DNA of 62,274 nucleotides, the filler included, from Basidiobolus ranarum (Eukaryota): assembly GCA_040143965.1 (NCBI GenBank). It is 7 parts of 7 records of this genome, joined end to end, with 100 filler letters (N's around TTAATTAATTAA, not from the genome) between each part and the next. Parts side by side here need not be neighbours in the genome. Positions count along the whole stretch, not along the records: positions 26,784 to 35,589 come from JASJQH010000917.1; 6 more parts are not named here. The stretch is one strand, 5' to 3'. Positions 3,864-58,115 of the stretch are shown piece by piece. Below the pieces are notes generated by a model. The model did not search any database, was not told the DNA's origin, and saw nothing but the letters and a program-made list of their open reading frames with translations. Made by a program: the position numbers and the translations under genes. The number at the start of each line of letters is the position of its first letter. Positions within the stretch are counted from its first letter, which is position 1.

Positions 3864-4835
3864 CTAAGCGGTTAGAGATGCCTCGTAGTAAGGTGGCAAA
3901 CCCATAGTATATGGTGGTGGTTGAACGTAGATTGGCAAAGAATCAAAGGGGTCTTTAAGAGTGTTAGAGACGATGACGACTGGCAATTGAATGTTTATCA
4001 GCTCCCGTCTTTGAGTGACGCGATCTACCAAAACCACCTGACATTGGATTTGATGGATTATATTGATTGGGGCAGTTTGACAATCCGAATTTAAATTGCG
4101 TGTATTTGTAGGTAAGGCAACGGAATGGCTAAACTCTCCTAGTTTACACACTGGATTGTTGATGCTGGTGGAGCTGATTTCTGTGACAGACTGCTTCTCG
4201 AACCCTTTACTAGGCAGTGAAAACTTCCGAACTTCTATTAGCGAAATTTTGATTGTATCGAGAGAAAGGGAAGCATCAGGAACCATCCGAAAGTTGATAG
4301 GGATATCTTGGCCTGGAAGAAAGCATCCCGAAGAGAGATTAAAGAAGTATTCCAATTTTCCTCTGGCAGCACCGGCAGAAAGCACGGGGTCGACCAACTC
4401 CATCTTTCCACTAACTACGTTTCGTTTGATAGAAATCCCTTTCTTTTTCACCAAGTTAAACGAAAACAAGGATCTCTCAACAGTAGCGACGAAGCCGTAG
4501 CTAATAATACCAGTTTGACATGATACACTTTCAGGAGTGTTTCCAGGGAGTTGCATCGTGAATGGATATCTGTAGCAGCCGGGGGCCAATATGCGAGGTT
4601 TATCTTTAGCTTCGAAAAGGTTCCAGGAATTTTGCGCAATAGTGTTGTTAACCCATCCTTCGGATTCGATGAACATATCCAACAACCCTAAGAAGCGTAG
4701 CGAGATGGAACTCACTTTCGTGTGCTTGGTGAGGGTTAACAGAACATTTCCTTCAAGAAGTCCACCATTGGACTCTAAACAAGAACCATTTACAGTAACT
4801 TCTTCCCAAGGAAGCAATATATCTAAAGTAGCCAT
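3864..4835 (-). CDS. Alpha-arrestin (ART/Rsp5 adaptor-like), intronless, 323 aa
   Basis: Arrestin-N motifs LEGNVLL, LAPGCYRYPFTMQLPGNTPES, GIISY; arrestin-C region INIIHQI; C-terminal PY-type motifs LPIY, PPPY, LPPYY. Confidence 0.88.
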   Translation of the reverse strand: MATLDILLPWEEVTVNGSCLESNGGLLEGNVLLTLTKHTKVSSISLRFLGLLDMFIESEGWVNNTIAQNSWNLFEAKDKPRILAPGCYRYPFTMQLPGNTPESVSCQTGIISYGFVATVERSLFSFNLVKKKGISIKRNVVSGKMELVDPVLSAGAARGKLEYFFNLSSGCFLPGQDIPINFRMVPDASLSLDTIKISLIEVRKFSLPSKGFEKQSVTEISSTSINNPVCKLGEFSHSVALPTNTRNLNSDCQTAPINIIHQIQCQVVLVDRVTQRRELINIQLPVVIVSNTLKDPFDSLPIYVQPPPYTMGLPPYYEASLTA

Positions 4836-4913
4836 TATAGTAAATAGAAATCAAGACAGTTGAGTAGATATGATCTTCTGTGCTATGATTTCTGCCATGT
4901 GTAGGTGCCCTCC

Positions 4914-8832: not shown

Positions 8833-8932
8833 NNNNNNNNNNNNNNNNNNNNNNNNNNNNNNNNNNNNNNNNNNNNTTAATTAATTAANNNNNNNNNNNN
8901 NNNNNNNNNNNNNNNNNNNNNNNNNNNNNNNN
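8833..8932. other. Artificial contig-joining spacer
   Basis: N44-TTAATTAATTAA-N44; stop codons in all six frames. Confidence 0.99.
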
Positions 8933-13808: not shown

Positions 13809-16225
13809 TCATGTGGAACCAGCTTGGCTGGCTTTTAAGCCAAGGGTTAAAATGGCAAATGTACCCTCTCCAAGTACAAATCCAGATGCTACTACAATCG
13901 ACAGTATCTGTACTAAACGAGGCCTACTGCTCCAACGACGGAACATTTCGCTCGCTAGTGCTCCCATAACACGTGGAAGGGTGTAGTTGGGTGGATTGTA
14001 TATGCCGATAGCAAATGCGATCCCCGAAGGAATTAAACGTAATAGTCGTGAGTGGGGATACTTGGCTTCCAGTAGTGGTGGGAGTGCAAAAAGAAATCCA
14101 AAAGAAAGGATGAAGGGAAGTACATTAGGTGGAAGCGGGTGCCCGTTCACTAGTCTTGACATGTCGAGCCATACTAGAGCTGTAGGGGCCTGAAATACGG
14201 GCCCAGGGATAGAGTACACACTGCTATACAATTGATACGCGCCAACAGCTACAAAAACTGACACAAATGATCCAATCAGCTGTCCAAAGAACTGAGCGCG
14301 CGGTGAAGCATGAAGAAGATGGCCGGTTTTCATATCTAGTAAGGGAACAAAATGTCAACATCAATTTGAACTACCTATGAGGCTGTGATCAAGCATATAC
14401 ATACCTTGCATTAAATCACCGGCTTGCTGAGCTCCAGCTTCAGCGATACCACCCGCAACAATGTTGGCGGCAATCCCACCAGGAATTACACCTGCAAATA
14501 CCACTTGAGATATCTTCCCAATACCACTAACAGGGTTCAAATCTGTTTCTCCAAGAGCTCGGACTGCCAAAACACTGAGAAGACACGCCAAGACAATAGA
14601 TAAGAGGGTAGCATAGATTGGAATATCAAACAATGCTGTCACGGCAACTACACACAATAACGATGAAAATGCTAATCCTCCATAAGTTACCCAAGATGGT
14701 ACTAATTGCTCTGGGGGGCATAAATCCTCATCTTCAGCTTCCATCAACTCGTCGCTATTCTTGTTAGAGTTTCTCCAACGCTGCTTAAATTCTTTGACAA
14801 CAATCACTCCAAGTCCGACTATACTTTCTGAGATCATGACTGCAAGTGAGATCCAGAGAATCCAGCCACGGGCTCCGGTTTGAGCATCATCTACTGGGCC
14901 TGGAGCCCAGCCACTGAAATAGCTAATTGGCGATAAAATACCCCAACCTACAATAGCACCAACTAGCATAGACAATGTAGTAGGTAATCCCATGATGATT
15001 CCCTGTCCCATGTATGATAAGGCTTTTGTAATAAATGATATGATTAGTACACTGCTCATAACTACAGTGACAATAAATACAGAAAATCGTGATACTTACA
15101 AGGAGTTAAAAACCAATTCCACTCGACAGCCTTTTGACCAAAGATAGGCAACCGGGATAGTATAGGAAAGAAGAAACTCAAAATCGTGTATAACCCAGAG
15201 AGTAGAAAGGAATAAAGTAAACAGATCCACTGTGTTCGCCAGTTGGCTTCTTCACCATTGGGCATGGGCTTTTTATGTAGCACGCTAATCATCTGAGCAG
15301 TTGCAGTGCCAGATGGAAATCGTAGTTTCTCTTTAATGATCTAAGAGGATACGAAAGAAGATTCAGTATGCTTGAACTCATAACAGTAAATACCAATGTT
15401 GTCAAGAACATACGGTTTGTTTCCGAAGTGGGATTGCAAAAAATACCCCGAAAAATGCGATGCCCAGTCCCCAAATAATCAATTGGAAACTGCTTAAAAC
15501 AATAGGACCACCTTCGTCTGCAGTTAGTAAGGTCAAAGCTGGGATGATTCCCACAAATCCTGTGTCATAGAATTCCGGTTAATATTGCGCTTTCAGGTTC
15601 ATAACATGGGCTTTAGAAATACCTCCAGCTAATGGCATAGTGGCAGTAGCCACAGCGGTAGTTTGTAAGATCACATTTTCAGCAACTCCAAACTTAACTT
15701 GCATCCAACGTTGAAAAGGTTTAAAAATGACAAAGCCAAGAAGTGACGATTGTAGCGACATCATGGATATCCAGCCAGTTTGCAGACCAAAGTACATGTT
15801 ACTGAAACAAAGAACTGACCCGATCATTAACCCCACAAGTATGGCACGAAGCTATAAGAAGGAACGGAGAAAGTTTAATACGATTTGAATACTATCCAAC
15901 CAACTCCTGTTGGTAACTGTATGTTCTTACCGTAAAGTGAGGTAAGTTCGCATCTGTGTCCGAGGTATCGGTAGACGATATTGAGGGATTTCTATGACCT
16001 TTTTCTCCATCTTTAGTGGTAAAAATATAAAAGTACAATAAATAAACTGCTGCAATTTGTGGGACTTTATAACTGGTGCTTACCGCTCGGGTTTTTGGTT
16101 ATAGTCTGATAGTCACCTTGTCGCCGTTTGCTGGTTGATGCAGGGGTAGAATCATTGGTCTGGCGAGGTAAATCATTTGGTAATTGCTCTTCCGACAAAA
16201 GGGGTTTGACTTCTGAATGTGACAT
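13809..16225 (-). CDS. OPT-family oligopeptide / metal-chelate transporter, YSL-like clade (yeast YGL114W-like), multi-exon
   Basis: Start MSHSEVKPLL at 16225. Spliced PHFT|LRAILVGLMIGSVLCFSNMYFGLQTGW, ENVILQT, EKLRFPSGTATA, RALGETDLNPVSGIGK, QQAGDLMQDMKTGHLLHASPRAQF, VASGFVLGEG are the conserved OPT/YSL motifs. Confidence 0.93.
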
Positions 16226-17760: not shown

Positions 17761-17860
17761 NNNNNNNNNNNNNNNNNNNNNNNNNNNNNNNNNNNNNNNN
17801 NNNNTTAATTAATTAANNNNNNNNNNNNNNNNNNNNNNNNNNNNNNNNNNNNNNNNNNNN
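17761..17860. other. Artificial contig-joining spacer
   Basis: N44-TTAATTAATTAA-N44. Confidence 0.99.
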
Positions 17861-17899: not shown

Positions 17900-19700
17900 T
17901 TGTGCCGCATAAATTTTAGAATACTTTATCCAATATGATATATAGAGCACAATCTGGCACTATCACAGAGAACAAGTCCACTGTGAAGGATTTAAGGCCT
18001 ACAGACGGTTTGATATAAAAAATCAACAGTTAATTAAGTCAGAGATGTAATTTTTGATGAAAAGCAAATTTTTCATCTCAAATCACAGTTCTTGCTCCAG
18101 AAAACACAATTGGTACTATTTGGGAAGAGTCTGTCAAAAATCCAGTAAGCAGTATCTGAGCACTGTTCTATCAAAATTCCAGTCTAAATTACAGCAGAGG
18201 ATGATTCAGGACACAGAAGATTATCCAGATGGAGAAATAAGCCAGGGAACTGGTGTAACACTTCCAATGATGATGAATATCCTTATGCAGCATTCTGTGA
18301 ACAGCCACAGACTCTAGACCAAGCTCTCAAAGTCCAGAATCAAAATTATAGGAGAAAGTAAAGTTTGATGAGTTTACTTCACTCCAGGACAAATCAACAT
18401 GGGTTTTAAGCTCCATTGAATCAATCCTGGCACACTGAGCTGTGCATGACCTTGATTGACATCAAATAGATGTAAAACAGCCTTTCTTATTTGAAATCTA
18501 GGAGAGGAGATCTATGCGGAGCAACCAGATGGATTTGTTGACCAAAAACACCCTGATATGGTCTGTAAACTGCAGAAATTGCTATATGGACTCAAGCAGG
18601 CACCCAGGGCATGTTACAGCTAAATAAATACCTATATGGAATCACCAGAATTTTAAAAATGGATAGCAAACCACAGTAATTACATTAAAACAGTTGGAAG
18701 TAGGATCCTTGTCTTGGCCCTATATGTGGATGACTTGAACATCGACATAAAGGATTTAGAAACCCTTGACCAGACAACAAGTAGCTTATCAAGCCAATTT
18801 CAGATGATTTTTATGGGTGAATTAAGTAATTTTCTAGCAATCCAAATCAAGAGAAATAAGCCCAATCAGAAAATCATGCTGAGTCAATCCAGATACATCC
18901 TAGACATCCTGAAGTGTGTCAACACGGAGAAAAGCAAGCCTTTATCTACACCAATGGATCCCAATGTGAATTAATCAATATTTAATCCAATTTGTCCCAA
19001 AATGACTCAAATCAAAGCCAGAGGTTCCATTATCAATCCATGGTGGGTAGCTTAGTGAATACAATGGTTGCAACATGTCCAGACATTGCTGTTGCAGTTG
19101 GAACTAGCAGCCATTATCTCAAAATTCAGGATCTGAGCACAAAAATGCAGTAGAACAAATATTCAGGCATTTGAGAGGAGCTGTAGATCTAATTCTGGAA
19201 TACTCTGCCACTCCTGATGCACAGAATTTTGAAGGCTACAGTGATGCTGACTGGGGAAGAAACTTTGATGATAGGAGATTAACTGGGTAAACTTCCCTCT
19301 ATAGAATTGGTGCCATAACTTGGAATAGCAAGATGCAACCAACCATAGCACTGTCCACTCTAGGAGCGGAGTATATGGCTGCCTATGCTACTACACAAGA
19401 AGCCATGTTTATAAGGAAGTTATTTACAGACTTAGGATACATGCAGAAAGGTGCTATTACTGTATTTGAAGATAATCAAAGTTTTATTTCCTTAGCTATA
19501 AGCCCTACATTTCATGATGGAACAAAACATATAGATATTAGGCAGCATTTTGTTAGAGAAGCAATAGAGAATGATTTAATCAAATTTGTCTATTGCCAAA
19601 CTGAAGAAACAATTGTTGACATCTTAACCAAACCTTTAGCTAAAGCACAATTTGAATTATTAAGTTATAAGACATATTCAATTCAATAGCACTTTAGTGA
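17900..19700 (+). mobile_element. Decayed Ty1/copia LTR-retrotransposon pol (integrase tail, RT, RNase H)
   Basis: Motifs [100 protein letters not shown]; many stops and frameshifts. Confidence 0.95.
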
Positions 19701-20544: not shown

Positions 20545-21100
20545 CCAAAAATGACTCAAATCAGAGCCAGAAGTTGCCTTATCAATCCATGGTTACTACT
20601 TTAATGTAGACAATAGTTCGAGCACATCCAGACTTTGCTGAGGCAGTGGGAACTGTTGGCCAATATTTCAAAAAGCCAGGGTCTAAGCACTAGACTACAG
20701 TAATATGAGTATTTGGATATTTGAGAGGAACTGTAGATCTAGTTCTGGAATACTCTGGGACTCACAATGCACCATATTTAGAGGGCTGTGATGCTATTGA
20801 CTGCAGAAAAAACCTTGATGATAAGAGATCAACAATAGGTACACTTTTCTCCATGGTTATGAGTTTGTAAATTGGAATATTAAGAAGCTACAACTGTAGC
20901 ATTACTTACTACTTAGGCTTAGTATATGGCTGCCTCAGCAACTACACAAGAAGCTATGTGGTCAAGAAAGTCATTTTCAAACTGAGGATACATGCTAAAA
21001 TGTGCAATTACTTTATTGAATACTAATCAAAGTTGTATTTCATTAGCTGACAGCCCTGCACTTCATGCTAGAAGAAAATGTATAGATACTAGGCATCATT
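20545..21100 (+). mobile_element. Second decayed copia fragment (RT end + RNase H)
   Basis: Begins aaaatgactcaaatcagagccag as at 19000; encodes HPDFAEAVG, YLRGTVDL, YMAASATTQEAMW, HARRKCIDTRHHF. Confidence 0.9.
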
Positions 21101-22850
21101 TCTCTCATAGGGCAAAAGAAATATTCAATTATATCATTCTCAATTGCTTCTCTGACAAAATGATGCCTATTATCTATATGTTTTGTTCTAGTATGAAATA
21201 TAGGGTTTTTAGCTAATGTAATATAACCTTGATTATCTTCAACTACAGCAATAGCTTGTTTTAGCCTATATCCTAAGTCTGTGAACAACTTCCTTAACCA
21301 CATAACTTCTTGTGTAGTGGCAGAGGCTGCCACAAACTTGGCTCTTGAAATAGAAAGTGCTCTAGCTAGTTGCTTCTCACTATGTAAAGTTATGGCTCTA
21401 ATACCATAGAGGAAAGTGTACACAGTTGTTATTCTGCTATTATCAAGGTTTGTTCCTAAGTCTGCATCACTATGGCCTTCAAAATTCTGTGCATCAGGAG
21501 TGCCTGAGTATTTCAGAACAAGATCCGAAGTCCCTCCCAAATACGCAAATATTGATTTTACTGCAGTCAAGTGCTCAGATCTGTATTTTTGAGATATTGG
21601 CTGACAGTTCCCACTACCACAGCAATACCTGGATGTGTTCCAACCATTTTATACATTAAACTACCCAACTTGGATTGATAAGGAAACTCCTTGCTTTGAT
21701 ATAGGTCATTTTAGTGCAATCAGGCAAATCTTGATCAACTTCACATTGAAATTTGATGGTTTCCATACAGCCTTTTTATTCCCCATGTTGAAGCATTGTA
21801 GGGTGTCAAGGATGTATCTAGACCATTTTGGCATAGCTTTCTCAAAGGGTTTTCCTTGATTGAACTGGATTTGAAGGATATAATTTAATTCACCAACTTC
21901 AGTATTCTGACATAGGTTTTATTAGCTGCTTTTCATTAAGATTAAATGCCTTCAGATCATTTGTGGCTATGAGCCAGTCATTCACATATGGTGCCAAGAT
22001 AAGGAACCTTTTTCCGGTATTTTAATGTAAGTAAATATCTTCTTAAAGATTTCCCTTTGGAAAGGCTGTTTGTACATCCTTTGTATGTAAATCAAGGTTT
22101 CGGATGATTGAGTGTGACAGGATTGCTCTAATCGAGCTCAACATAGCTACGGGAAGAAAGGTTCCTTGAAAATCAACTCCTGGAATCTTGGAATAACCTT
22201 TGCAACAAATCTTGCTTTGTACCTTTGTGTCATTCCATCAACATGGTTATTTCCTTTATAGAGCTAGTTGCAGCTTATTTGCTCCCTCCCTGTTGGTAGA
22301 GAACTTCAAACCCATGTTTCATTGTTGTAAAGTCAAGGAAAGTCATCAAACATTGCTTTTTCCCATAATTTTCAGTCTGGACACTGATGAACTTGATCCA
22401 AATTCAGTGGTTCATTACAAAGTGCTGCATAAGCATAGAAATCATCATTGGAAGTATTCTACTAGTTCCCTGGCTTATTTGTCTTATGGGATGATCTTCA
22501 AGGCTGTAAGTCACCCTCTGGTATAATTAGGGCTGGAATATTGGTTGAATTGGGTTCAGAGAGTGTTGGATCTTTGTCAGTCACTTACTGGAAAATGGCG
22601 ATTGTGTTTTCTGGATCAAAAAATGGGATTTGAGGCATATGATTTTCATTTCCTCAAAAATCACAATTCTGCACTTGATTAACCTCTGCTTTTTGGTATC
22701 AAACAGTTGGTAGGTCTTAGATCAATCACAGTAACCAAAAAATATACATTTACTGTTTTTGGGTACCAAATAAGAACATTGTTGAGCTGTAACTAGGCAA
22801 CAAGCTGTGCAACTAAAGTTCCAGATATGATTCACAATGTGTTTTGATTC
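21100..22850 (-). mobile_element. Third decayed copia pol fragment, inverted relative to the second
   Basis: ORF 21043-21570 has EGHSDADLG, AASATTQEVMWLRKL, EDNQG, FHTRTKHIDNRHHFVRE. RT remnants lie at 21600-22400 and an integrase C-terminal remnant (IWNFSC...IVIFEE) at 22650-22830. Confidence 0.92.
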
Positions 22851-26683: not shown

Positions 26684-26783
26684 NNNNNNNNNNNNNNNNN
26701 NNNNNNNNNNNNNNNNNNNNNNNNNNNTTAATTAATTAANNNNNNNNNNNNNNNNNNNNNNNNNNNNNNNNNNNNNNNNNNNN
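26684..26783. other. Artificial contig-joining spacer
   Basis: N44-TTAATTAATTAA-N44. Confidence 0.99.
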
Positions 26784-29034: not shown

Positions 29035-29925
29035 TTAGAAGGAATCATCGATACGGAAAATGTAAGAGTATGTTATGATGGTGCCATACACCAGAATGCC
29101 ACCAGAGATACTTAAGAGCATCGCAGGCATAGTAATCTATAACATAAAAGATGCTTTAATTAATGTTTCTGAGTGTTTGCAACCTTATATACGTACCACT
29201 CCAGCATGAGCTAGCACCATAGGTAGACCTGCACGAAGTAATTAGTATCGACCAATAAGTGTCTTGTAGACGAACAAAAGAATTTACCGAAGCCAGTTAC
29301 AATGAAGATCGCAGTGATGAATCTACCAGCGTCGAGAAAGCCGGCTCTAACGTAAAAGAATTCAAGATCAGTATAACATTTAAAATACACTCTAAATAGA
29401 GACGGTATCTCACCCATGAGAATCGGACATGAGGTCATCTCCACCACCGCAACGCCCAAAAATAAAATTAGGCAACGGTGCAAGTGCATACGTAAACACT
29501 ACATAGTAAAGTAGATGGGGAAGTTAACTCCAAACATTAATCACGTAAAGAAATGATATGTCTAGTACAAACAATATGAATAATCTACATACCAACAAAC
29601 AAAGGCCACCAGTTTCTATTTAAAATCAACTCATCAATATGTAACGAAATAAATAACAACAGAAATAATCGTTACTTACTGATAGAGAGCACATGATAGG
29701 ATCGAGAGTAGGAAACCGATGGCTAACAAGAATGCAAGAGAGATGATACTATGTAGATAAGAATATGAGAACATGAATTTATGAGCAGATGTAGATTTAA
29801 GAACCAGAATTCCAATAAAAACTTTGTAGAATCTATATTTACACTTATAGAAAAGTACGCATGAGTCAAAGATGATCGTTAATTCTATATTAATTAGGAT
29901 AATACGTACCTTTTACTCCGGCCAT
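29035..29925 (-). CDS. VPS55: Vps55 / LEPROT (OB-RGRP) family four-TM endosomal sorting protein, 7-8 short exons
   Basis: Hand-spliced: MAGVK(V)IISLAFLLAIGFLLSILSCALYQNWWPLFVVFTYALAPLPNFIFGRCGGGDDLMSDSHGAGFLDAGRFITAIFIVTGFGLPMVLAHAGVITMPAMLLSISGGILVYGTIITYSYIFRIDDSF*. All introns GT-AG. Confidence 0.93.
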
Positions 29926-32595: not shown

Positions 32596-35558
32596 ATGCC
32601 ACACAAAGTACTAACCTCGGATTCTGCCGAGGTATTCCTCTCGGGTGTTCCGCACCCAGGTGGCCTAAATGACCTTCCACACCCAGTCACTCCAACAATC
32701 CTAGAAGCCTCCATTCCTGAGGAAATTTTCGGTCCCACCGATAGTTTGATGGAAAATGTGGAAACCAATCCACCAAAAACGAAGAATCCCACTGAAGTCA
32801 AAACTCAAAATCCATCCGGAAAAAGTACCAAGACTCGTCGATCTGTTGGTGAGTATCAGTTAAATAAAACTCTTGGCGCCGGAAGTATGGGGAAAGTCAA
32901 ACTTGGTATCCATAATGTTACCGGCGAAAAGGTAAACAAATCATATTATAAATTTCGGTATAACTTGTAATTATTAACGAATTGGGAGTAGGTTGCAATC
33001 AAAGTAATCCCTAGAAGTAGTCGCGAAAGTAATTCGAAACGTCCATCTGAAGCGGCAGCGAAAGAAGAGAATAAAGAGATTCGAGTGGTTAGAGAGGCTG
33101 CCATTATGTCGCTTCTTGATCATCCTAACATAGTGAAGATGAAGGAGATGATTGTTCATAATCACCATTATTACCTTATCCTCGAGTATGTTAGCGGTGG
33201 CCAGATGTTAGATTACATCATAAGTCACGGTCGTTTGAAGGAGAAGCACGCTCGAAATTTTGCTCGACAAATATGCTCGGCTCTAGGTAAAAACAAACCA
33301 TATACATGTTCTTGAATTCGCTTATGCTAACCTGCTGTCCTACAGATTATTGTCATAAAAACTCGATCGTCCATAGAGGTAAAGGTTCTTGATAAAGTGG
33401 TAATATTCGTCTACAATGTTAACTCATATGTACTAGATCTCAAAATCGAAAACATTTTGATTGCCGACGACGGTTCAATCAAATTGATAGACTTTGGTCT
33501 TTCAAATCTCTTTTCCACGCGTTCACATCTATCTACCTTCTGCGGGTCCTTGTATTTTGCTGCCCCCGAGCTACTACATGCACGTGCCTATACCGGACCA
33601 GAGGTCGATGTATGGAGCATGGGAATTGTTTTATATGTTTTGGCTTGTGGAAAGGTTCCATTTGACGACCAAAGTCTCCCAGCCTTACACGCCAAGATCA
33701 AGAGAGGTCATGTAGAATATCCTACCTGGTTGAGCAGCGGTAAGATTTAGAATACTTGGAATCCACACAAATGACACCTACTAATTAAACGAATTTTACC
33801 ATAGAATGCAAGCATTTGCTTTCTCGCATGTTGGTGACCAGCCCACAAGACAGCGCCACCATGGCTGAAGTGATGCGTCACCCTTGGATGAACAAGGGCT
33901 TCGACGGCCCACCTGTGAATTATTTCCCAGTTAGAAAGCCCCTGCAGTTACCATTAAATGCAGAAGTAATTCAAAATATGATTGGGTTTGAATTCGGCTC
34001 AGAGGAACGAATTCGGCAAGAGCTAGAATCCATCGTTCGCAGTGATGCGTATCAAAACCAAACAACCCCGACCCATAATAATGTAGGATTCTCTCGACGA
34101 CTGAGCGGCTATTTAAAGAGAGGGAATACACTAGAAAATGGTGTGGATCATCCACTACTCTCTATATATCATCTAGTGAAAGAGCAAATAGAAAGAGCTC
34201 AAGAGAAGGCCTCTTCAAGTACTTCCTCAACCTCTCTGCAGTCGATTCCAGAGAATCAAATCGTTGAAATAGCAACACTCGATCATGCTACTAAAGCAAG
34301 TGAATATCATACCGTCAATAGCGAGCGCTTTTGCAATGATTCACAAAGGTTGGTCAGAGACAATAATGAAAAATACGGAAATGGGGATACTCCAGCATTA
34401 GATAATAAATTAAATGGCGACGAATATACACATAAAAGGAGTAAGAGCACCACCGCAAGCGGTGTGTTCCGGCGTATCAGTCAAGCTATTAAATCTGGAA
34501 GGAGCGGGCGTAGTCAGTACAAACACCAACAGCATCAGTTGCTTTCAGATGATGAGAATCATGAACCTAGCAATTTTGATAATGATCTTACAGCACCTAA
34601 CCCGATGCGAACCAGAAGAGCTTCAGCTAATCACGATTCACGTCCCCTGAGCTCCAGAGCTGATGATCAATTCTACACTAGCGAACATAACACCAAGAAA
34701 ACCGGTCGTGAACATTTGGGAAATCGGCTTAGCAGTATGCTTTCACGAGCCACTAGTCTCAAAGAATCCAACATATATAGGAGACGACGTAAATCAAGCG
34801 AAGAGAAAGCACCGATATCTAGAAAGCCCTCAAGTGTAATACGACAGTCACATAACCGTCCTCCACAACTGCGTGTCGACCGCTTCCCTACACGCAGTCA
34901 CCCTGAAACAATTGGAGAGAGGGATCAAAGCCCTACGCGTAGTCTTACTGACTCTAATTGTTCACGCGAACACAATACGGTTGACTCTTATATCAAACCG
35001 GTATTTCTTAAGGGACTATTCTCTGTGGCTACAACCAGCTCCAAAAAGCCTAGCACCATTAGAGCTGATATCATTCGAGTATTAGATAAGACGGAGATCG
35101 TATGGAGAGAAGGCGCTGGTTACTTTGAATGTATACAGATGAACCTTGAGGAAGATGGACAAAGTGGATTTACTCGACTTTCCGATAATACTGGCTCCTC
35201 GGTAGTTACCTCCAAGTCGGATGAGCCCCAAACCTCAAAAACCTCACCCAATGCTCCCGACTCCAAGCTTAGGTTAACTGTACAGAAAAACCCATCGGAT
35301 CGTTTAGATGTCGAGGAACGTAGGTCAATGAAATCGAAAGCATCCTCTAGCCGACCATCATCCTCACGCCATGAACCACAGTTTGATGCAGAAGAAGAGT
35401 CAGCCATGCCAAATTACACCTCTACTAGATTTAGGATCAGCATTGTAAAAGTCCCGTGGCTACCAGGTCTTCATGGAATCAGGTTTAGAAGACTAGTTGG
35501 ACATCCCTGGGAATATAAGAATGCCTGTTCCAAAATCCTGAGCGAATTAAAGCTTTGA
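32596..35558 (+). CDS. KIN1: Kin1/Par-1/MARK family Ser/Thr kinase with C-terminal KA1 domain, 5 exons
   Basis: [60 protein letters not shown]1 region [17 protein letters not shown]...[27 protein letters not shown]. Exons ~32596-32931, 32992-33286, 33346-33378, 33437-33739, 33805-35558. Confidence 0.96.
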
Positions 35559-35589: not shown

Positions 35590-35689
35590 NNNNNNNNNNN
35601 NNNNNNNNNNNNNNNNNNNNNNNNNNNNNNNNNTTAATTAATTAANNNNNNNNNNNNNNNNNNNNNNNNNNNNNNNNNNNNNNNNNNNN
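35590..35689. other. Artificial contig-joining spacer
   Basis: N44-TTAATTAATTAA-N44. Confidence 0.99.
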
Positions 35690-36561: not shown

Positions 36562-38817
36562 ATGTCCAAAGAAATAACCGTCTATATTTTGGAAGTTGGG
36601 CCTAGTATGTGGGAACCGAATGAGCTTGGAAAGCCCACTTACTTAGCCAAAGCTTCTGAGATATTAGAACTTATGTTGCATCCCAAGGTATACTATTCCA
36701 ACATAAACAACTAACTATCACTTCAACCTTCGAATAAACTTGTTATGTGGATACTTTAAACTTACTTCTTATTATTATTGAAAGTTAAGTCATGTTAAGA
36801 AAAGTGAGGAATTCGCATTGGTCCTTTTTGGTACTGACGGTAGGTTTGGTTTATTAAATATTTAAAGGAATTTCACTTCAACCAACTTGTACGAACCTTA
36901 CTTCATTCAGAAACCAGAAATGACCTAGCACTCAACGACGAATATCAACACGTTACAGTAATAAGAAAGCCTAGAAATATTGATCTAAATTTATTATTGT
37001 GTGCAACCACCGAATTACCCAAAGGGAACGCTGAAGCTGATGGTATTCCTTATTTTAGGGTGTAAGTATTCCCTTCAGTGAGATTCCTAACCCAGAGATT
37101 TTCTTTTCAACAAAAATAGCGTTAGATGCGTTAATCGTAGGTATAGACCTGATAGAGCAACACTGTGGTCAACGAAAATTCACCAAACGTATAGTCCTCA
37201 TTACCGGTGCAGAAGTACCCATTAACTTTTCTGATGCTGAAGAAGTATCCAAGCAAATTACCGAAGATGGAATTGAACTGAATATAATGTAAATTCTCCC
37301 ATAATGTTCCCATTTCACTTGATATTCATCTCTTAATGTATCTTCACTCATCATAGTGGTGCTGGATTCGAACCTGAACTTAAAAAATCCAAAACCAAGG
37401 TAACTCTTTCTTTGGACATAATGTAATTCAAATTTCTAATACTTTCTCTCATAGTCACTCAATGAACGCTTTCTAAAAACCTTAGCGGATCGAGTGAATG
37501 GCTCTATATTTGCCATGTCAGAAGCGTTGGATATCCTCTCTGAATATCAAGTCAAGACAGTTCGATCAACCGCAGCTTTTCGCGGATCTTTGTTCTTGGG
37601 GGATCCTAGACTACATCCAGAGACTGCACTCGACATTCCGGTGATTGGATACACACGCACCACTCCCCTATCTCTGCCCAGTGCCAAGAAATGGTCCACT
37701 CTGGCTGATGTAGCGGCTGGTGAGCAACCGAAGACACACGAAGCAACCATGGGTCGAACGTATCAGATTCTTGGTGAAGAAATCCCAGAAGAAGTAACTT
37801 ACTCAGATTTAGAAAAAGCATATCATTATGGTCGTACTTTGGTTCCACTGAAGAAGATCGATGAAGAATTATTAACGTTACCAGCGGAAAAAGGACTCTA
37901 TATCTTGGGCTTCTTTGATGCTACTTACTTTAACAGAGAATGGGAAGCTTCAAATGTGATGACTTTTGCTGCTGCACCGGATAATACACTCGCAAGTAAG
38001 GGGCTATCCTCTTTGATTCACGCAATGTACGAAAAAGACGCGTTTGCATTGGTTAGGTACTGTCGAACAGACAATGGTATTGTGAAGCTGGGAGTATTAA
38101 AGCCCTGTATCAAAGCTGAGTATGAGTGCTTGTACTATGTCAAGGTGAGTGACACATGCGGAGTACCCCCGAAAAGCGGCATTATTAAACATCGTTTATT
38201 AAGGTACCGTTTGCGGAAGATATTAAGCGCGTTACTTTCCCGTCATTGGACTGTGTCAATAAACGAACAGCCAAATCTACGAAAACATTCCCGACACAAG
38301 ACATGTTGGACCGTACCCAAGCGTTCATTGAAAGTATGAATCTTATGAACGCAGATGTTGATAAGGATGGGTAAGGATAAGATTGCAAGCAACATCAAAT
38401 CCAACTCTGACTGAAATCGGTATAAATAGCAAACCTCAAGAAGCCTGTAAGCCAAAAGAAACTTTCAATCCTACTTACCAGCGATTATATCAATGCATAC
38501 GTAAACGCGCTCTAGATCCAGACGCTCCGCTACCTGATATTCCTTCAGATTTATTAAAGCAATTTGAAACGCCATCGATAATCTTGGATAGAGGTCAGTC
38601 AGCCGCTGAAGGACTGAGAGCAGCTTTCGAGGTGCAAAAAGGTATTCTTTTTATTTTGGAAGGTCTCTTCAAATTTCATCATAGTAAGCATTTAATGATA
38701 GTGGAACCAGTCAAACGATGGAAACCAGAGGAGGCACCTCCAATTCCCACAACGACAGTCGATGAAGTTTTGGAGAGGGGAGCAGATAGTGACCTTTCGT
38801 CGTGGGTTTCTATCTAA
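36562..38817 (+). CDS. KU80: Ku80 NHEJ DNA end-binding subunit (vWA + beta-barrel + arm), 9 exons, ~570 aa
   Basis: MSKEITVYILEVGPSM, ALVLFGTDETRNDL, ADALDALIVG, KRIVLIT, KAYHYGRTLVP, LSSLIHAMYE..ALVRY, VPFAEDIK, FNPTYQRLYQCIRKRALDP; eight in-frame GT-AG introns. The exact 3' end is uncertain. Confidence 0.92.
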
Positions 38818-41039: not shown

Positions 41040-41458
41040 AAGCACTCCAAGCCTCCTCCTTAGTCATCTCTTTGTTGTCGCCTCTTGTAGATTGCCTTTC
41101 ATTGGTCCCTATATGAAATTCCTACTCAATTCCTCTATTTATATTCTTCTCTTACACCCACTACAATCAATCATCAAAACTAATAAATATAGATCGTTCA
41201 GAGTCTTTTCAAATATAGATTCTATTGAATCCATATATGCATATAGAGTTGCTTGCTTTATAATCTTACTACTATTTGTTCCGAATAGTCTATTCCAAGA
41301 TGACTAAGCTATCAGAATGTATTAATAATCTATCTAGGATGCCGCAATTTACTAGAAAAAATTGAAATCAGGCCCGGTCACATGACAGGTAGAGAAGATA
41401 TTGCGTTTGTTAAAAGATTGACTTGGTAGTTTGCATTCAACTAGCATAACCCCCCAAC

Positions 41459-42868
41459 ATGACTTCCCGTATACTATTACCTAAAGCTCTTAAACCTTTA
41501 CTTCCGTTTACTTCTAGTAAACAATGTTTCAGAGCATTGCCAACGCTTAGTCAAAAGTTTGGAACGGTTACTGAGGCGCCTAGAACACGTATCTCCAAAT
41601 TAGCCAATGGCTTTACCGTTGCAACAGAATCCATTCCTACTGCTCAAACAGCCACAGTAGGTGTTTGGATTGATGCTGGAAGTCGTGCAGAAAACTCCAA
41701 AAACAATGGCACTGCCCATTTCTTAGAGCACATGGCTTTCAAAGGAACTCAAAGACGTACTCAACGTGAGTTGGAAGTTATGATTGAAAATATGGGTGGA
41801 CATCTTAATGCTTATACTTCACGTGAACAAACTGTATACTATGCCAAGACTTTCAAATCAGATCTTCCTGCCGCTGTAGATATATTGTCGGATATTTTGT
41901 TGAATTCCACTTTGAATTCGGGTGCGGTTGAACGTGAAAGAGATGTAATTGTCAGAGAGCAAGAAGAGGTTGATAAAATAATGGAAGAAGTGGTTTTTGA
42001 TCACCTTCATGCTACTGCCTTCCAAAAGCACTCACTTGGTAGAACCATCCTTGGTCCTAAGGAAAATATTTTATCTATCAAAAGAGACGATCTTGTTAAT
42101 TATATCTCAACTAACTATAAAGCGGATCGTATGGTATTAGTTGGTGCTGGTGGTGTTGATCATGAGGAACTAGTATCTCTTGCTGAAAAGCATTTCTCTT
42201 CACTATCGAGCTCTGCAGGTCCACGTCCAGAATCGAAAAAACCCACATTTGTCGGGTCAGAAATTAAACTCCCAGACAATAGTACAGCACAAGCCCATAT
42301 CGCTTTGGCTGTAGAGGGAGTTGGATGGTCATCCCCTGACTATTACCCTATGTTGATTTTGCAATCTATTATTGGTAGTTGGGATCGTTCTTTGAGCACA
42401 CCCTCTGGCTCATCATTCCGTCTTTCCTCTGTAGTCGCCGCCAAACAACTAGCCAACTCTTTCATGTCATTCAATACTTCTTACTCGGATACTGGTCTAT
42501 TTGGAATCTACATGATATCCGAAAATAAAGACAAACTTGATGAATTGGTATTCACTGCGCAAAAGGAGTGGTCCCGTCTCAGAGCTACCGTAACCGATGC
42601 TGAGGTGGAACGCGCCAAGCAACAACTTAAAGCAGCACTTTTGTTGAATCTTGATGGTAGTACCGCTATCGCTGAGGATATTGGCAGACAATTGATCACC
42701 ATGAACAAGAGAGTGGAGCCTAAAGAAGTCGAAACCACCATCAATAGCATTACAGGGGATGATGTTCGTCGTATAGCTCAACAATATCTCTATGATCGGG
42801 ATGTGGCGGTAGTTGGATTGGGCCCAGTTGACAAACTCCCAGAATACAGTCAAATTCGGATCAATTAA
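41459..42868 (+). CDS. MAS1: Mitochondrial processing peptidase beta subunit / complex III core 1 (peptidase M16), intronless
   Basis: Basic mitochondrial presequence; VGVWIDAGSRAE, zinc motif HFLEH, LNAYTSREQT, FNTSYSDTGLFG, AEDIGRQ. Confidence 0.93.
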   Translation: MTSRILLPKALKPLLPFTSSKQCFRALPTLSQKFGTVTEAPRTRISKLANGFTVATESIPTAQTATVGVWIDAGSRAENSKNNGTAHFLEHMAFKGTQRRTQRELEVMIENMGGHLNAYTSREQTVYYAKTFKSDLPAAVDILSDILLNSTLNSGAVERERDVIVREQEEVDKIMEEVVFDHLHATAFQKHSLGRTILGPKENILSIKRDDLVNYISTNYKADRMVLVGAGGVDHEELVSLAEKHFSSLSSSAGPRPESKKPTFVGSEIKLPDNSTAQAHIALAVEGVGWSSPDYYPMLILQSIIGSWDRSLSTPSGSSFRLSSVVAAKQLANSFMSFNTSYSDTGLFGIYMISENKDKLDELVFTAQKEWSRLRATVTDAEVERAKQQLKAALLLNLDGSTAIAEDIGRQLITMNKRVEPKEVETTINSITGDDVRRIAQQYLYDRDVAVVGLGPVDKLPEYSQIRIN

Positions 42869-44493: not shown

Positions 44494-44593
44494 NNNNNNN
44501 NNNNNNNNNNNNNNNNNNNNNNNNNNNNNNNNNNNNNTTAATTAATTAANNNNNNNNNNNNNNNNNNNNNNNNNNNNNNNNNNNNNNNNNNNN
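44494..44593. other. Artificial contig-joining spacer
   Basis: N44-TTAATTAATTAA-N44. Confidence 0.99.
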
Positions 44594-46273
44594 AAGATCT
44601 AACCAAAGGAAATAAAGATGATACACGTATCGAGATCTCCGAATACTCGACGGTCGAAACTAGAGCAGGAAAGGTGAAATCATTTATAAAGAAATTGGTC
44701 TCTTTCTTAGGACCTGGTTACAGTGAGTTTCATTTAGAATGGATTCATGTGTACGACTTACAGCTAACATGATGCCTACTTAGTGATTGCCGTGGGCTAT
44801 ATGGATCCAGGGAATTGGGCTACTGATCTATCGGGTAATGTGAAGCTGTTCTAACATCCATTATTAACACCAAGAACTAACCATATCCCTCTAATGAAGG
44901 TGGTTCGCAATTCGGATACTCTTTACTCTTTGTAATCTTGGTGTCCAACGTCATGGCAGTTGTTCTTCAGTCACTGGCTGTGCGTCTAGGAGTTGTAACT
45001 GGTTGCGGTAAGTTTCCAGGCCCCTACATTCACATAAGAATCATCTGGCTCAATTGCATTGCTCTTCTACCATACAGATCTAGCTCAAGCTTGTAAGAAG
45101 TACTATCCAAAATGGGTGAATGTATGTCTGTACCTCTTGTGTGAAGTAGCCATCATTGCATGTGACTTGGCGGAAGTAATCGGGTCCGCGATAGCATTGC
45201 AGATGTTATTTGGTCTACCGTTGGTTTGGGGAGTGGTGATCACTACACTAGATGTATTTCTAATTCTTTTGGCCAATCGAAGTGATTCTAAGTTAGCGAG
45301 TCGATTTTTCGAGGGATTTATCTTTCTGTTGGTCATGGGAGTTGGTGTCTGCTTCATCATTCAATTGGTTTATGTTCAACCGATCTTCACTCAGGTGATG
45401 TTGGGATTCTTACCCACTCCCGAAATACTAACCAATAGTAAAGAATTATATGTGGCGATTGGTATCGTAGGTGCTACCGTGATGCCGCATAACTTATATC
45501 TCCACTCTCATATTGTTAAATTACGCTCCCCTAATTCCAATACAACCGAACCAATTCAGAGTCAAAAAGAGTTAAACAAATCCGTCCAAAGCTCCCTTAC
45601 ATTCTCCATTGTGGATTGTATTCTGGCTTTGACATTTGCATTGTTTGTTAATTCAGCTATTTTAGTGGTGGCCGGTGGAGCGTTTCATAATAATGCCAAG
45701 GTGGAAGTGGCTGATCTATTCGATGCCCAGAGGTTACTGACTGAAACCATGGGTTCGGTTGCCGGTATGGCATTCGCTTTGGCACTACTACTTTCTGGTC
45801 AAAGCTCAACCATTACTGGGACTATGGCTGGTCAAATCATCATGGAGGGTTTTCTTGGATTGACCATTCGACCTTGGTTACGTAGACTCGTCACCCGAGG
45901 TTTAGCCATCATTCCAGCTATGGCTGTGGCGATACTATTTGGCTCCAAAGGCATGAACCAGGTACTAATTGGATCCCAGGTGATATTAAGTCTTCAATTA
46001 CCTTTCGCAGTGATACCGTTGGTCATGTTTACCGGTAACAAGAAGGTGATGAAAGTACCATTTATCGAGAAGAATGAAGAGTTTGAGATCAACACCATAT
46101 CCAGTGAAAATGAAAATCAAACGGCTAAAGATCACGACGATATGTTCGACGATAGTGAGAAAACCTTCGCAAGTAACACTTTAATGAAGATACTCAGTTG
46201 GTTGATTGCCATAATTATCGTCGGTTTAAATGGCTTCTTGCTAGTAGAAACTGCCCGGGGTGCCACGCTCTAA
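44594..46273 (+). CDS. NRAMP/SMF divalent metal (Mn/Fe) transporter, 5' truncated, at least 4 exons
   Basis: [85 protein letters not shown]. Confidence 0.95.
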
Positions 46274-46874: not shown

Positions 46875-48634
46875 TTAGAATGCGGCGGCAATTCCTCTCT
46901 TTCGGGAATCAGAGGCTGCATTGAAATATCCATTTGGCAGTCTAGCAACTGCCTGGACAACACATTGTGTAGTGGCCAATCTAGTGACGTTGTGACCGCG
47001 TGATTCCAAAGACTTTACAAAACGCTCAGCATATTGTGGCTCTACGGTTACTTGGTTAGGCATTAATTGGTGATGGGCGCGGGGAGCAGCAACTGCTTTA
47101 TCAACACTAGTAGAGAAATCGTATATGCTGAGAATCATTTGAATTGTTGCAGTGGTTATGTAACTACCACCACTAGCACCGACCGCTAAAGAAGGATATC
47201 CATCGGTCTCTACAATGGTTGGTGACATGGAGGAGAGTGGACGTTTGCCAGGCTGAATAAAGTTGGCTGCCGATGGAAGGTATCCAAATGCATTCACCAA
47301 TCCTGGGGTAGAAAAATCGTCCATCTCATTGTTGAAAATGATCCCAGTTTCACGATCTAGAACTTTGGAGCCAAATTCAAGATTAATGGTGGTAGTCAAA
47401 GCAACTGCTCCACCTTCTTTATCCATGGTTGATAAATGAGTGGTACCGGGGGTATCTTTCTGCTGATAGTTTGGTTGATAATATTCTACTGGGAAAGTTT
47501 TGGAATTCGAGATGTTATGACGTCTCAGAGCCCCTTGATCCTTGGATAACATTTCCGCGATCTTGGCTGTCGTATTGACGAAATCTGGATCCCCGAGATA
47601 TGTACGCTGAGCATACCCATACTTGAACGATTCGATAATTCGATGAAGGTTAAGATAATTTAGCTTATCAAGGGCAATATTGTATCCTTCAAGGGTATTT
47701 AGTGCTGAAATGACGACTGAGCCACTAGCAGGTGGAGGTGCAGCAATAACTTTATGGCCGTGGTAATAGCCTACAAGTGGAGGCTTTGATAAAGCTTGGT
47801 ATGAACTAAGATCATCCAAAGTAATTATTCCGCCTGCTTTTTGAACCGCATTCACGATGAGATTAGCGAGTTTTCCCTTATAAAATGCATCGGGACCATT
47901 TCGAGCAATCAACTCCAATGTGTCTGCAAACCGAGGTCTCTTTACCAATTCCCCGGCTTTCAAGATTTCTCCGCGAGGTGCATAAATTTCCCTGAAAGCT
48001 GTGTTGTTCAAAATCAAATCTTTATGAACTTGTAATTTGATTGCCAATTGTTCGGTGGCTGGGAAACCGTTACGCGAGAGTTGAATCGCTGGTTGAAACA
48101 ATTTTTCCCATGAAATACGACCATATTTCTTATGAGCTAATTCGAAGCCTCGTATTTCTCCGGGTATGCCGATCGCTAAACCCCCCAGCTGGGAGGCACC
48201 AGGCTTATTCTTAAACATTTCAGTGGACGCACCGGCTGGGGCCGACTCTCTGAAGTTAATGAAGTCTACTGTACCGTTACTGGAACGAATAGTCATGAAA
48301 CCACCACCACCGATACCCGATGAGAAACTATTACCGGAACCAAGACATAATGCAGTTGCAATAGCAGCATCAATAGCATTACCACGACTCTTCAAAATTT
48401 GCACACCCGCCTCGGAACATATTTGTGAATCAGCAGCGACAGCACCATTGTGCCCGGTAGCTAAATGAACCTTTCCAACTGAAGGAGCCTCTTTGACTGA
48501 TCAACCAAAGAGCTGTTAGTATGACTGGTAAATAGAACATAAGTAGTAAAAATTCACTTGCTTGGAGCACTGACGACAACACTGGCAGAAGTACATGCTA
48601 GAAGCAACCAGGCGATTTTAGTAGTGGCCACCAT
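46875..48634 (-). CDS. Gamma-glutamyltranspeptidase with signal peptide, 2 exons
   Basis: Exon 1 MVATTKIAWLLLACTSASVVVSAP (48634-48562). Exon 2 from 48496 has GAVAAD, GNAIDAAIA, SGIGGGGF, NFRESAP, catalytic TTHLS, NNEMDDFS, PGKRPLSSMSPT, GASGGS. Confidence 0.95.
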
Positions 48635-53386: not shown

Positions 53387-53486
53387 NNNNNNNNNNNNNN
53401 NNNNNNNNNNNNNNNNNNNNNNNNNNNNNNTTAATTAATTAANNNNNNNNNNNNNNNNNNNNNNNNNNNNNNNNNNNNNNNNNNNN
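53387..53486. other. Artificial contig-joining spacer
   Basis: N44-TTAATTAATTAA-N44. Confidence 0.99.
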
Positions 53487-57000: not shown

Positions 57001-58115
57001 ATATTTACTCTGCTCCAGCCTTTAACACTCTTGATAGTGTTTTCTATCACTTACAATTAAATGAATAATCTTCCTGATTTTTTCCTATTACTCAAACTAG
57101 ATTCAATTTGACCAAATTTTTTACGCATTTATGGTTACCGAGTACACCACAGTGGCGCCATTGTTCATCCCTATTGCTTTTCACTTTTGCTCCACTTATT
57201 TTCTCTGCTCCTAAGTATATTAAGGTCGAGCCAAATTCTAACTGGAACAGCATCTAGATTGGCTTGATTGTTGTACCACTTAGATCACTTGAATTAGGAC
57301 CAATCGAGTATTTGGCGTTTTCCCACCGATGAATTTAGCACACAAGAACATTAGAATTTTCTGCTTGGTGATCATAAGGAGGCAAATTTTCAGCCATAAA
57401 ATTGCTGCGAAATCTCAAAAGTAAAATCGAAGGAAAAAAATATCAGCAAGTTGCAATTAGACTATTTTCAAAGATTGATTAGTCCCGGCTGTCAAAATGT
57501 GATAATTTGGAGCACTGGGAATCCATATATATTATGGTTATCGATCAATTCCATTTTAGATTTGGTCATACACTGGTCTAAATGGGAAATCTAGATTCAG
57601 CCATACACACGACATAGTGTTATTATACAGCAAAATTTTCTTGTGCCATGTGATTGAGTACACAGTCTCTGTAACCGCCCACAAATGACCAGGAATGAGA
57701 ATTCAATGGGATTCGGCTGCTATGTCCAACAGCATCTCATTAATATGTATTACAGAACTCCTATTTAGCGAGAACTCTGTGTATCCTTGCTAGAGCAGGG
57801 AAGTAACAGCCTCATCATTACCATATCACTTGGATCAAGAATAGTGTGTCCCTTACAATCCGTTTTGAAACAATGCAACTAGCCGAACCCATATATGACA
57901 ATCGGCAGCTTAGTACTTGAGAATGGAACACTGGACAAATTCCAAATCCATTATAGGCAACGGATTGGCCTTATGTTTGGTGAGATGATATATTCAGAGA
58001 GTCCCCAAATAGGCTTATTTAAGGTTAGGTAAGGTAACAAGTATAAGTTTCGCAAGAAACATTTTCCCGCCTTCACTATAAATTTTGGGATACTTCATTT
58101 TCAGAAGCCATTACA

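What the first reader, a model, noticed from the sequence alone, without database searches (positions are those of the whole stretch)
29749..29910. Probable single-nucleotide microexon in VPS55 (position 29843)
Seen (minus strand): exon 1 ends ATG GCC GGA GTA AAA G|GTACGT (phase 1), but the next exon starts catag|T ATC ATC (needs phase 2), so direct splicing frameshifts. Inside the unusually long 161-nt gap lies tacttttctataAG-T-GTaaat: an acceptor, one base (29843) and a donor. This splits the gap into introns of 66 and 94 nt and restores G+T+T = Val, giving MAGVK-V-IISL. That matches homologue spacing (MAGLK-T-IIAL, MAGVK-A-LVAL). AAG acceptors and GTAAAT donors are both used elsewhere in this window. 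From memory, to be verified: the phase-1 intron after MAGVK is shared with animal LEPROT, and 1-nt exons have been reported in plant APC11 and VPS55. A fungal case would be notable. Alternatives: a weaker donor GGT AC|GTATTA (adds one residue) or a downstream acceptor that deletes part of TM1.
Basis: partly seen in the sequence, partly recalled or inferred. Interest (0 to 1): 0.7.

Follow-up and report, generated by a model that had tools for sequence, protein, structure and literature searches.

The report
One-base exon in fungal VPS55
A small membrane-sorting gene (VPS55) of an early-branching fungus very probably keeps a single T as an exon between two ordinary introns; two distantly related fungi have the same layout at the same codon, and plants have a proven one-base exon in the same gene, but no RNA data could be checked here.

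Summary
Observation confirmed. Exon 1 ends in phase 1 and exon 3 starts in phase 2; T29843 between an AAG acceptor and a GTAAAT donor restores a 128-aa Vps55. No RNA could be read, so inclusion is inferred. Support: both intron-bearing orthologous loci of 3 found (Mortierellaceae-like L010, L011) have branch site-YAG-N-GT at the same codon, with T and C. 115 of 131 scorable homologues have one residue there, 2 have two. A splice model self-trained on this genome puts the site above all but 13 of 5000 shuffles, and both single-intron rivals at the 1st percentile. The public model of this gene misses exon 1. Against: weak AAG acceptor, Val is rare here (1 of 115), only two orthologous loci. One-base exons are published for plant VPS55 and for other fungal genes, so this is a new member of a known kind. 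The scan noted VPS55 one-base exons before on other DNA (springtail, protist; unchecked). Whether the plant exon splits the same codon, which would make it about as old as eukaryotes, was not testable.

The parts
29910..29925 (-). VPS55 exon 1 coding part (16 nt, five codons plus one base, phase 1)
   Evidence: matches the conserved MAG[LVI][KR] start of homologues; start context A at -3, G at +4
29844..29909 (-). intron 1a, 66 nt, GTACGT...AAG
   Evidence: whole-intron score at 54th percentile of 255 predicted introns
29861..29866 (-). predicted branch site of intron 1a (ACTCAT, branch A 29862), at the usual distance; the AAG is the first AG after it
   Evidence: 46th percentile; 41 nt to the previous AG; prediction only
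29843..29843 (-). one-base exon (T), middle base of codon 6 (Val)
   Evidence: same layout in L010 and L011; inclusion in mRNA inferred, not shown
29749..29842 (-). intron 1b, 94 nt, GTAAAT...TAG
   Evidence: donor 63rd percentile, whole intron 10th percentile
29772..29774 (-). ATG inside intron 1b, in frame with exon 3; start of the public model P0005
   Evidence: poor start context
29680..29748 (-). exon 3 (69 nt, starts in phase 2, encodes the first hydrophobic stretch)
   Evidence: also 69 nt in L010 and L011
29593..29615 (-). exon 4 (23 nt)
   Evidence: also 23 nt in L010 and L011
29414..29498 (-). exon 5
29288..29346 (-). exon 6
29197..29228 (-). exon 7
29035..29136 (-). exon 8 with stop codon

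Best explanation
T29843 is a constitutive one-base exon of VPS55. Two ordinary short introns (66 and 94 nt), each with its own donor, branch site and acceptor, sit one base apart and are each recognised across the intron and removed one after the other. The T supplies the middle base of codon 6, just before the first membrane helix, and gives the full 128-aa protein. Skipping it or keeping either intron stops translation by codon 7-14. The layout is inherited, not a recent repair: it is shared with Mortierellaceae-like fungi. Shown: the sequence layout, the open frame and the same layout in two orthologues. Inferred: inclusion in mRNA, branch sites, sequential removal (model proposed in PMC4674806) and shared ancestry.
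For: Phase mismatch 1 to 2 is repaired by exactly this base; the two other in-frame internal exons in the gap (10 and 28 nt) score lower and would add 3 or 9 more residues. L010 and L011 have a phase-1 donor, an internal branch site-pyrimidine tract-YAG-N-GT (T; C) and a phase-2 acceptor, and exons 3 and 4 of the same lengths as here; their sites beat all but 5 and 3 of 5000 shuffles. The base differs (T, T, C) and always gives a plausible residue (Val, Ile, Thr). One residue at this place in 115 of 131 homologues, and in all 37 intact of 47 unnamed transcript-like proteins (36 Thr, 1 Ile). Window site beats all but 13 of 5000 shuffles; intron 1a is typical. Public models of Mucoromycota+Zoopagomycota are broken at the N-terminus in 52 of 77 against 9 of 49 in Agaricomycetes; 17 of 30 with a foreign N-terminus end in Ser/Arg, as read-through of a phase-2 AG would give, and 14 of 25 intact ones have Ser/Arg where 40 of 40 Agaricomycetes have Thr. 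After removal of intron 1a the bases before the T are again AAG, so the second donor keeps its context.
Against: No RNA read or cDNA of this gene was seen. The acceptor is AAG (20 of 255) and scores at the 3rd percentile by sequence matrix, 26th with the branch site; intron 1b is at the 10th percentile. Val occurs in 1 of 115 homologues, Thr in 98. Only two orthologous intron-bearing loci were found, both from one family, by a pattern that required intron 3. The splice model rests on 255 predicted, unverified introns, and the Mortierellaceae-like sites were scored with this genome's matrices. Many zygomycete models may be broken for other reasons, such as annotation without RNA (not checked). 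The public model nearest to L010 (P0053, 56 of 56 identical residues in the exon compared) uses the +4 donor.
Confidence: 0.9

Rival explanations
1. One 157-nt intron from a donor four bases downstream (GTATTA, 29905) to 29749; the protein gains one residue (Gly-Thr in place of Val) and the internal AG-T-GT is chance or a vestige.
For: Gives an open 129-aa frame and puts Thr before the helix, as in 98 of 115 homologues. Public model P0053 has the matching two-residue form. Needs no AAG acceptor.
Against: GTATTA is 1 of 255 predicted donors (11th percentile) and 9 of 255 introns are >=150 nt; whole-intron score at the 1st percentile. A second GT at +5/+6 is present in 97 of 255 donors, so its presence says little. 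It competes with a stronger donor four bases upstream. Two residues occur in 2 of 131 homologues. In L010 the equivalent donor is very weak (-2.77) while its AG-T-GT is strong.
Confidence: 0.05
2. The public model is right: translation starts at ATG 29774 in what is called intron 1b here, giving a 131-aa protein with another N-terminus; exon 1 is non-coding. A weaker form: this is a minor product of transcripts that keep intron 1b, like the intron-retention forms of plant VPS55.
For: P0005 is annotated so; the ATG is in frame with exon 3 and the first hydrophobic stretch stays whole. Plants have VPS55 forms made by intron retention (PMC8831610 section 12).
Against: Leaves the conserved exon-1 peptide, its good start context and its strong donor unexplained. 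Poor start context (T at -3, T at +4). The foreign N-termini of related models differ from each other, and 17 of 30 end in the Ser/Arg signature of an acceptor.
Confidence: 0.03
3. One 187-nt intron from 29909 to a downstream acceptor (29723), deleting nine residues of the first helix.
For: Open 119-aa frame; good pyrimidine tract (69th percentile); public model P0037 has the like deletion.
Against: No branch site (0th percentile); whole-intron score at the 1st percentile; shortens the uncharged stretch from 23 to 14 residues; 29749 is met first.
Confidence: 0.02

Closest known systems
1-nt microexon of plant VPS55 (cluster 2; Yu et al. 2022, PMC8831610: section 12, passages, supplementary files 1 and 6 searched, file 4 read; also Zygnema Vps55, PMC11096116, passages read)
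   Same: Same gene family; one coding base between two introns near the N-terminus; missed by public annotation, which then gives a wrong N-terminus; RT-PCR-confirmed in plants.
   Different: Fungus, single gene copy. Donor after the exon is GTAAAT here (GTAAGG, GTACGT in L010, L011), not the conserved plant GTRAGT. Whether the same codon is split could not be seen: the alignment figures are in a supplementary PDF too large to read. No RNA proof here.
One-nucleotide exon of Fusarium CYP621A (Nelson and Syed 2026, PMC12940212: abstract and Discussion read)
   Same: Fungal; phase-1 donor meets phase-2 acceptor; the base is the middle of a codon; found by comparison of orthologues.
   Different: Other gene and phylum; invariant G in a conserved motif, whereas here the base varies (T, T, C); confirmed by RNA reads there.
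1-nt exons of Coprinopsis cinerea (PMC12230235: passages read) and Arabidopsis APC11 (PMC4674806: passages read)
   Same: One-base internal exons; 13 in 13 genes in Coprinopsis long-read models; sequential intron-definition splicing proposed for APC11.
   Different: VPS55 is not named in the Coprinopsis main text (0 occurrences); Agaricomycete VPS55 models point to a single phase-1 intron (inference).

Membership tests
Vps55/LEPROT (Pfam PF04133) | match to the family profile | tested here: met
   exons 3 and 8 each pass the cut-off; P0005, identical over exons 3-8, carries PF04133
constitutive single-nucleotide exon | one base between a complete upstream intron (GT...branch...AG) and a complete downstream intron | tested here: met
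   branch sites are predictions
constitutive single-nucleotide exon | inclusion needed for the conserved reading frame | tested here: met
   skipping stops at codon 14; one-residue spacing in 115 of 131 homologues; two in-frame single-intron escapes exist but score at the 1st percentile
constitutive single-nucleotide exon | conserved in orthologues | tested here: met
   2 of 2 loci with introns at this codon, of 3 found; the third (L009) and L072 have no intron there
constitutive single-nucleotide exon | base present in spliced mRNA | not testable with these tools
plant VPS55 microexon cluster 2 | 1-nt exon in a VPS55 gene, near the N-terminus, whose omission damages the N-terminus in annotation | tested here: met
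   codon 6 here; public model lacks exon 1; plant description
plant VPS55 microexon cluster 2 | same codon and phase as the plant exon | tested here: inconclusive
   text gives only 'absence of 13 N-terminal amino acids' in Arabidopsis; phase and tag not in the files that could be read; no plant VPS55 protein was among the hits listed
plant VPS55 microexon cluster 2 | downstream donor GTRAGT | tested here: not met
   GTAAAT, GTAAGG, GTACGT in the three fungal loci against GTRAGT

The most novel reading that the evidence does not exclude
The VPS55 one-base exon is a single ancient structure: two introns one base apart in codon 6, shared by early-branching fungi and streptophyte plants (and, by unchecked notes of this scan, a springtail and a protist), so about as old as the last common ancestor of eukaryotes. 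Lineages then lost one intron or the other, leaving phase 1 only (Agaricomycetes, by model signatures), phase 2 only (Rhizophagus and Lichtheimia models read Thr-Tyr-Val after exon 1) or none (two ascomycete loci), which looks like a one-base intron slide. It would contradict, for this exon, the published view that these microexons arose as plants came onto land.
Probability: 0.45. Interest if true: 0.75.

Novelty: new member of a known kind. Interest (0 to 1): 0.5.

Why it matters
Practical: the public model of this gene lacks its real N-terminus, and the same fault is likely in many zygomycete VPS55 models (52 of 77 broken at the N-terminus). Evolutionary: the exon is shared across two fungal phyla (Zoopagomycota-labelled P0005; Mortierellaceae-like L010, L011) and lies in the gene where plants have a proven one-base exon. 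If the position matches, it is a candidate for the oldest known one-base exon and a natural test of apparent one-base intron sliding by differential intron loss. The short flanking introns (66 and 94 nt) make it an easy substrate for asking which intron is removed first.

Tried and rejected
RNA runs: not available for this window. Pfam family search of the own genome found 0 matches because exons are short. Representative-protein search with exon 8 gave 1 hit. Pattern scan of viral contigs gave 6 matches, none VPS55 in the frame read; the alignment scan there found 86 pattern matches and no relative. Prokaryote-genome scan gave 1 match, an ascomycete-like VPS55 without an intron at this codon. 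The genomes behind L010 and L011 are not held. No solved structure. DNA alignment of the three intron cores did not line up the one-base exons and shows no shared element. Other internal exons in the gap (10 nt, 28 nt) rejected: lower site scores, wrong spacing. Acceptors 29833, 29822 and 29885 rejected: weak branch scores (5th-8th percentile), and the first two lie 11 nt behind another AG. No congeneric VPS55 protein was among the hits listed. Literature searches for a fungal VPS55 one-base exon (listings only, apart from the papers named) found none; the library lacks most subscription papers. PMC9508853 mentions S. pombe vps55 introns only as unstructured controls (passage). MEPDB (PMC12409088, passages) does not name VPS55. 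Look-ups of earlier findings by sequence and by a narrower word set were empty.

Full report
Observation. On the minus strand the gene starts at ATG 29925. Exon 1 has 16 coding bases and ends in phase 1 at donor GTACGT (29909). Exon 3 starts at 29748 in phase 2. In the 161-nt gap lies acceptor AAG (29844), T29843 and donor GTAAAT (29842), which gives introns of 66 and 94 nt. With the T, eight exons give an open 128-aa frame; the other five introns are 59-94 nt. Skipping the T stops at codon 14, keeping intron 1a at codon 12 and keeping intron 1b at codon 7. Two single-intron routes also keep the frame without a long insert: donor 29905 (one extra residue) and acceptor 29723 (nine residues lost).

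Identity. Exons 3 and 8 pass the Pfam Vps55 cut-off. Public protein P0005, named by its source as Basidiobolus ranarum Vps55, is identical over exons 3-8 (122 of 122 residues) but starts at an ATG inside intron 1b and lacks exon 1. This confirms the downstream boundaries and shows that the predictor failed exactly here. The window is seven contigs joined by N spacers; the gene is on G000:C917 and two searches found one copy.

Chance and splice strength. I trained a simple gene finder without splice priors on 661,674 bases of the genome (600 kb fetched, plus the window). It yielded 255 predicted introns, VPS55 left out: median 63 nt, 18 of 255 >=90 nt, 9 of 255 >=150 nt; donor GTAAAT 18 of 255, acceptor AAG 20 of 255. 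These introns are predictions, not RNA-verified. The microexon donor is ordinary (63rd percentile), the rival donor GTATTA weak (11th; 1 of 255), and the AAG acceptor weak by matrix (3rd). That acceptor has a typical branch site at the usual distance and is the first AG after it; the rival acceptor 29723 has none. Whole-intron scores: 1a 54th percentile, 1b 10th, alternative donor 1st, alternative acceptor 1st. Some usable AG-N-GT arises in 7-8% of shuffles of the gap, so the motif alone proves little; one as good as the real site arises in 61 of 5000 or, with the branch site, 13 of 5000.

Orthologous DNA. One metagenome scan, with a pattern of exon-3 codons followed by GT, gave 3 loci. L009 is an ascomycete-like gene with no intron at this codon. 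L010 and L011 are Mortierellaceae-like: closest to P0053 (56 of 56 residues) and to P0017/P0011 (52 of 56). Both have exon 1 ending in phase 1 at GTATGT, exon 3 starting in phase 2, exons 3 and 4 of 69 and 23 nt as here, and inside the gap a branch site, pyrimidine tract, YAG, one base and a donor: T in L010 (introns 250 and 133 nt, Ile) and C in L011 (450 and 235 nt, Thr). Each gap holds one other AG-N-GT, with a very poor score. The real sites beat all but 5 and 3 of 5000 shuffles. The intron sequences are not otherwise alike, so what is kept is the architecture. Limits: two loci, one family, and a pattern that needed intron 3.

Protein spacing. Of 194 homologues, 26 lacked the helix anchor and 37 the exon-1 motif. 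Of the 131 left, 115 have one residue between K/R and the helix (98 Thr, 9 Ser, 5 Arg, 1 each Val, His, Ile) and 2 have two; the other 14 have other spacings, one of them mis-anchored by my pattern (a stricter first count gave 60 of 68 from 120 proteins). I sorted 173 of the 194 by source name, by hand. Among 77 Mucoromycota+Zoopagomycota models 25 are intact (10 Thr, 9 Ser, 5 Arg, 1 Val), and 17 of 30 with a foreign N-terminus end in Ser or Arg. Among 49 Agaricomycetes 40 are intact, all Thr, and 6 of 7 foreign N-termini end in Ala. Among 47 unnamed, transcript-like proteins 37 are intact, 36 Thr and 1 Ile. Inference: Ser/Arg is what AG plus one base gives when a model reads through a phase-2 acceptor or borrows a splice-site G, and Ala is what a phase-1 acceptor gives before a Thr codon. 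This points to a widespread one-base exon in the two zygomycete phyla and a single phase-1 intron in Agaricomycetes. Models P0124 and P0015 read Thr-Tyr-Val after exon 1, as a phase-2 donor would give. These readings rest on proteins only; the DNA was not seen, and poor annotation is a confounder.

Mechanism. The most likely route is intron definition with sequential removal, as proposed for Arabidopsis APC11 (PMC4674806, passages): two spliceosomes are unlikely to fit across one base, but each intron here carries its own signals. Exon 1 and intron 1a both end in AAG, so the context of the second donor is the same before and after the first step. The order is unknown. The weak AAG and the 94-nt second intron may make splicing leaky; retained-1b transcripts carry an in-frame ATG, which recalls the intron-retention forms of plant VPS55, but that is speculation.

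Evidence against. No RNA evidence. The rival donor would give Thr before the helix, the common residue, while the microexon gives Val, seen once (P0003). P0053, the public model nearest to L010, uses the +4 donor; I could not see whether RNA backs it. A GT at that place is present in 97 of 255 donors, so predictors have this escape at hand.

What is known. Plant VPS55 has a 1-nt exon confirmed by RNA-seq and RT-PCR; the paper does not mention fungi (PMC8831610; 0 occurrences; section 12 read). Zygnema has it too, under the heading that microexons evolved during plant terrestrialization (PMC11096116, passage). Fungal one-base exons are in print: Fusarium CYP621A (PMC12940212; abstract and Discussion) and 13 in Coprinopsis (PMC12230235, passages). 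Seven searches of the held library found no fungal VPS55 case. The plant exon's codon and phase were not in the text or in the supplements searched or read; the main supplementary PDF, which holds the alignments, was too large to read and bears directly on the homology question. Earlier notes of this scan report VPS55/LEPROT one-base exons in a springtail and a protist; I did not check them.

Verdict. A real one-base exon with probability about 0.9; a new member of a known kind; interest 0.5. The bold reading, one ancient exon shared by fungi and plants with differential intron loss, has about 0.45 and would merit 0.75.

Noticed in passing
window 8833-8932, 17761-17860, 26684-26783, 35590-35689, 44494-44593, 53387-53486: The window is seven contigs of about 8.8 kb joined by N spacers, so neighbours across spacers are not real neighbours.
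   Followed up: yes
L072 (1-2445): An ascomycete-like VPS55 with an intron lies on a 116.7-kb contig filed in a Deltaproteobacteria genome bin; probably eukaryotic contamination.
   Followed up: partly
window 29774-29749 (-): In-frame ATG inside intron 1b; transcripts that keep this intron could make an N-terminally different Vps55 behind a six-codon upstream frame.
   Followed up: partly
L010 rc 595-978; L011 rc 293-978: The introns on either side of the one-base exon (133-450 nt) are longer than introns 3 and 4 of the same genes (84-97 nt).
   Followed up: no
proteins P0122, P0177: Both Blastocladiomycota models are also irregular at this codon (two residues short; one extra), which hints that the exon reaches zoosporic fungi.
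   Followed up: no
window 58047-60470 (+): 807-residue open frame without an intron break, with a hydrophobic N-terminal part and a Sulfatase domain.
   Followed up: no
window 45038-46273 (+), 46875-48500 (-), 41450-42868 (+), 37455-38817 (+), 32596-35558 (+), 3864-4850 (-), 13809-15095 (-): Ordinary genes: Nramp transporter, gamma-glutamyltranspeptidase, M16 peptidase, Ku, protein kinase, arrestin, OPT transporter. The Ku gene has a predicted intron with an AAG acceptor at 38145-38203.
   Followed up: partly
window 19291-19689 (+), 21043-21648 (-): Frames that look like decayed copia-type retroelement pieces (label from recall; the one scanned had no Pfam match).
   Followed up: no
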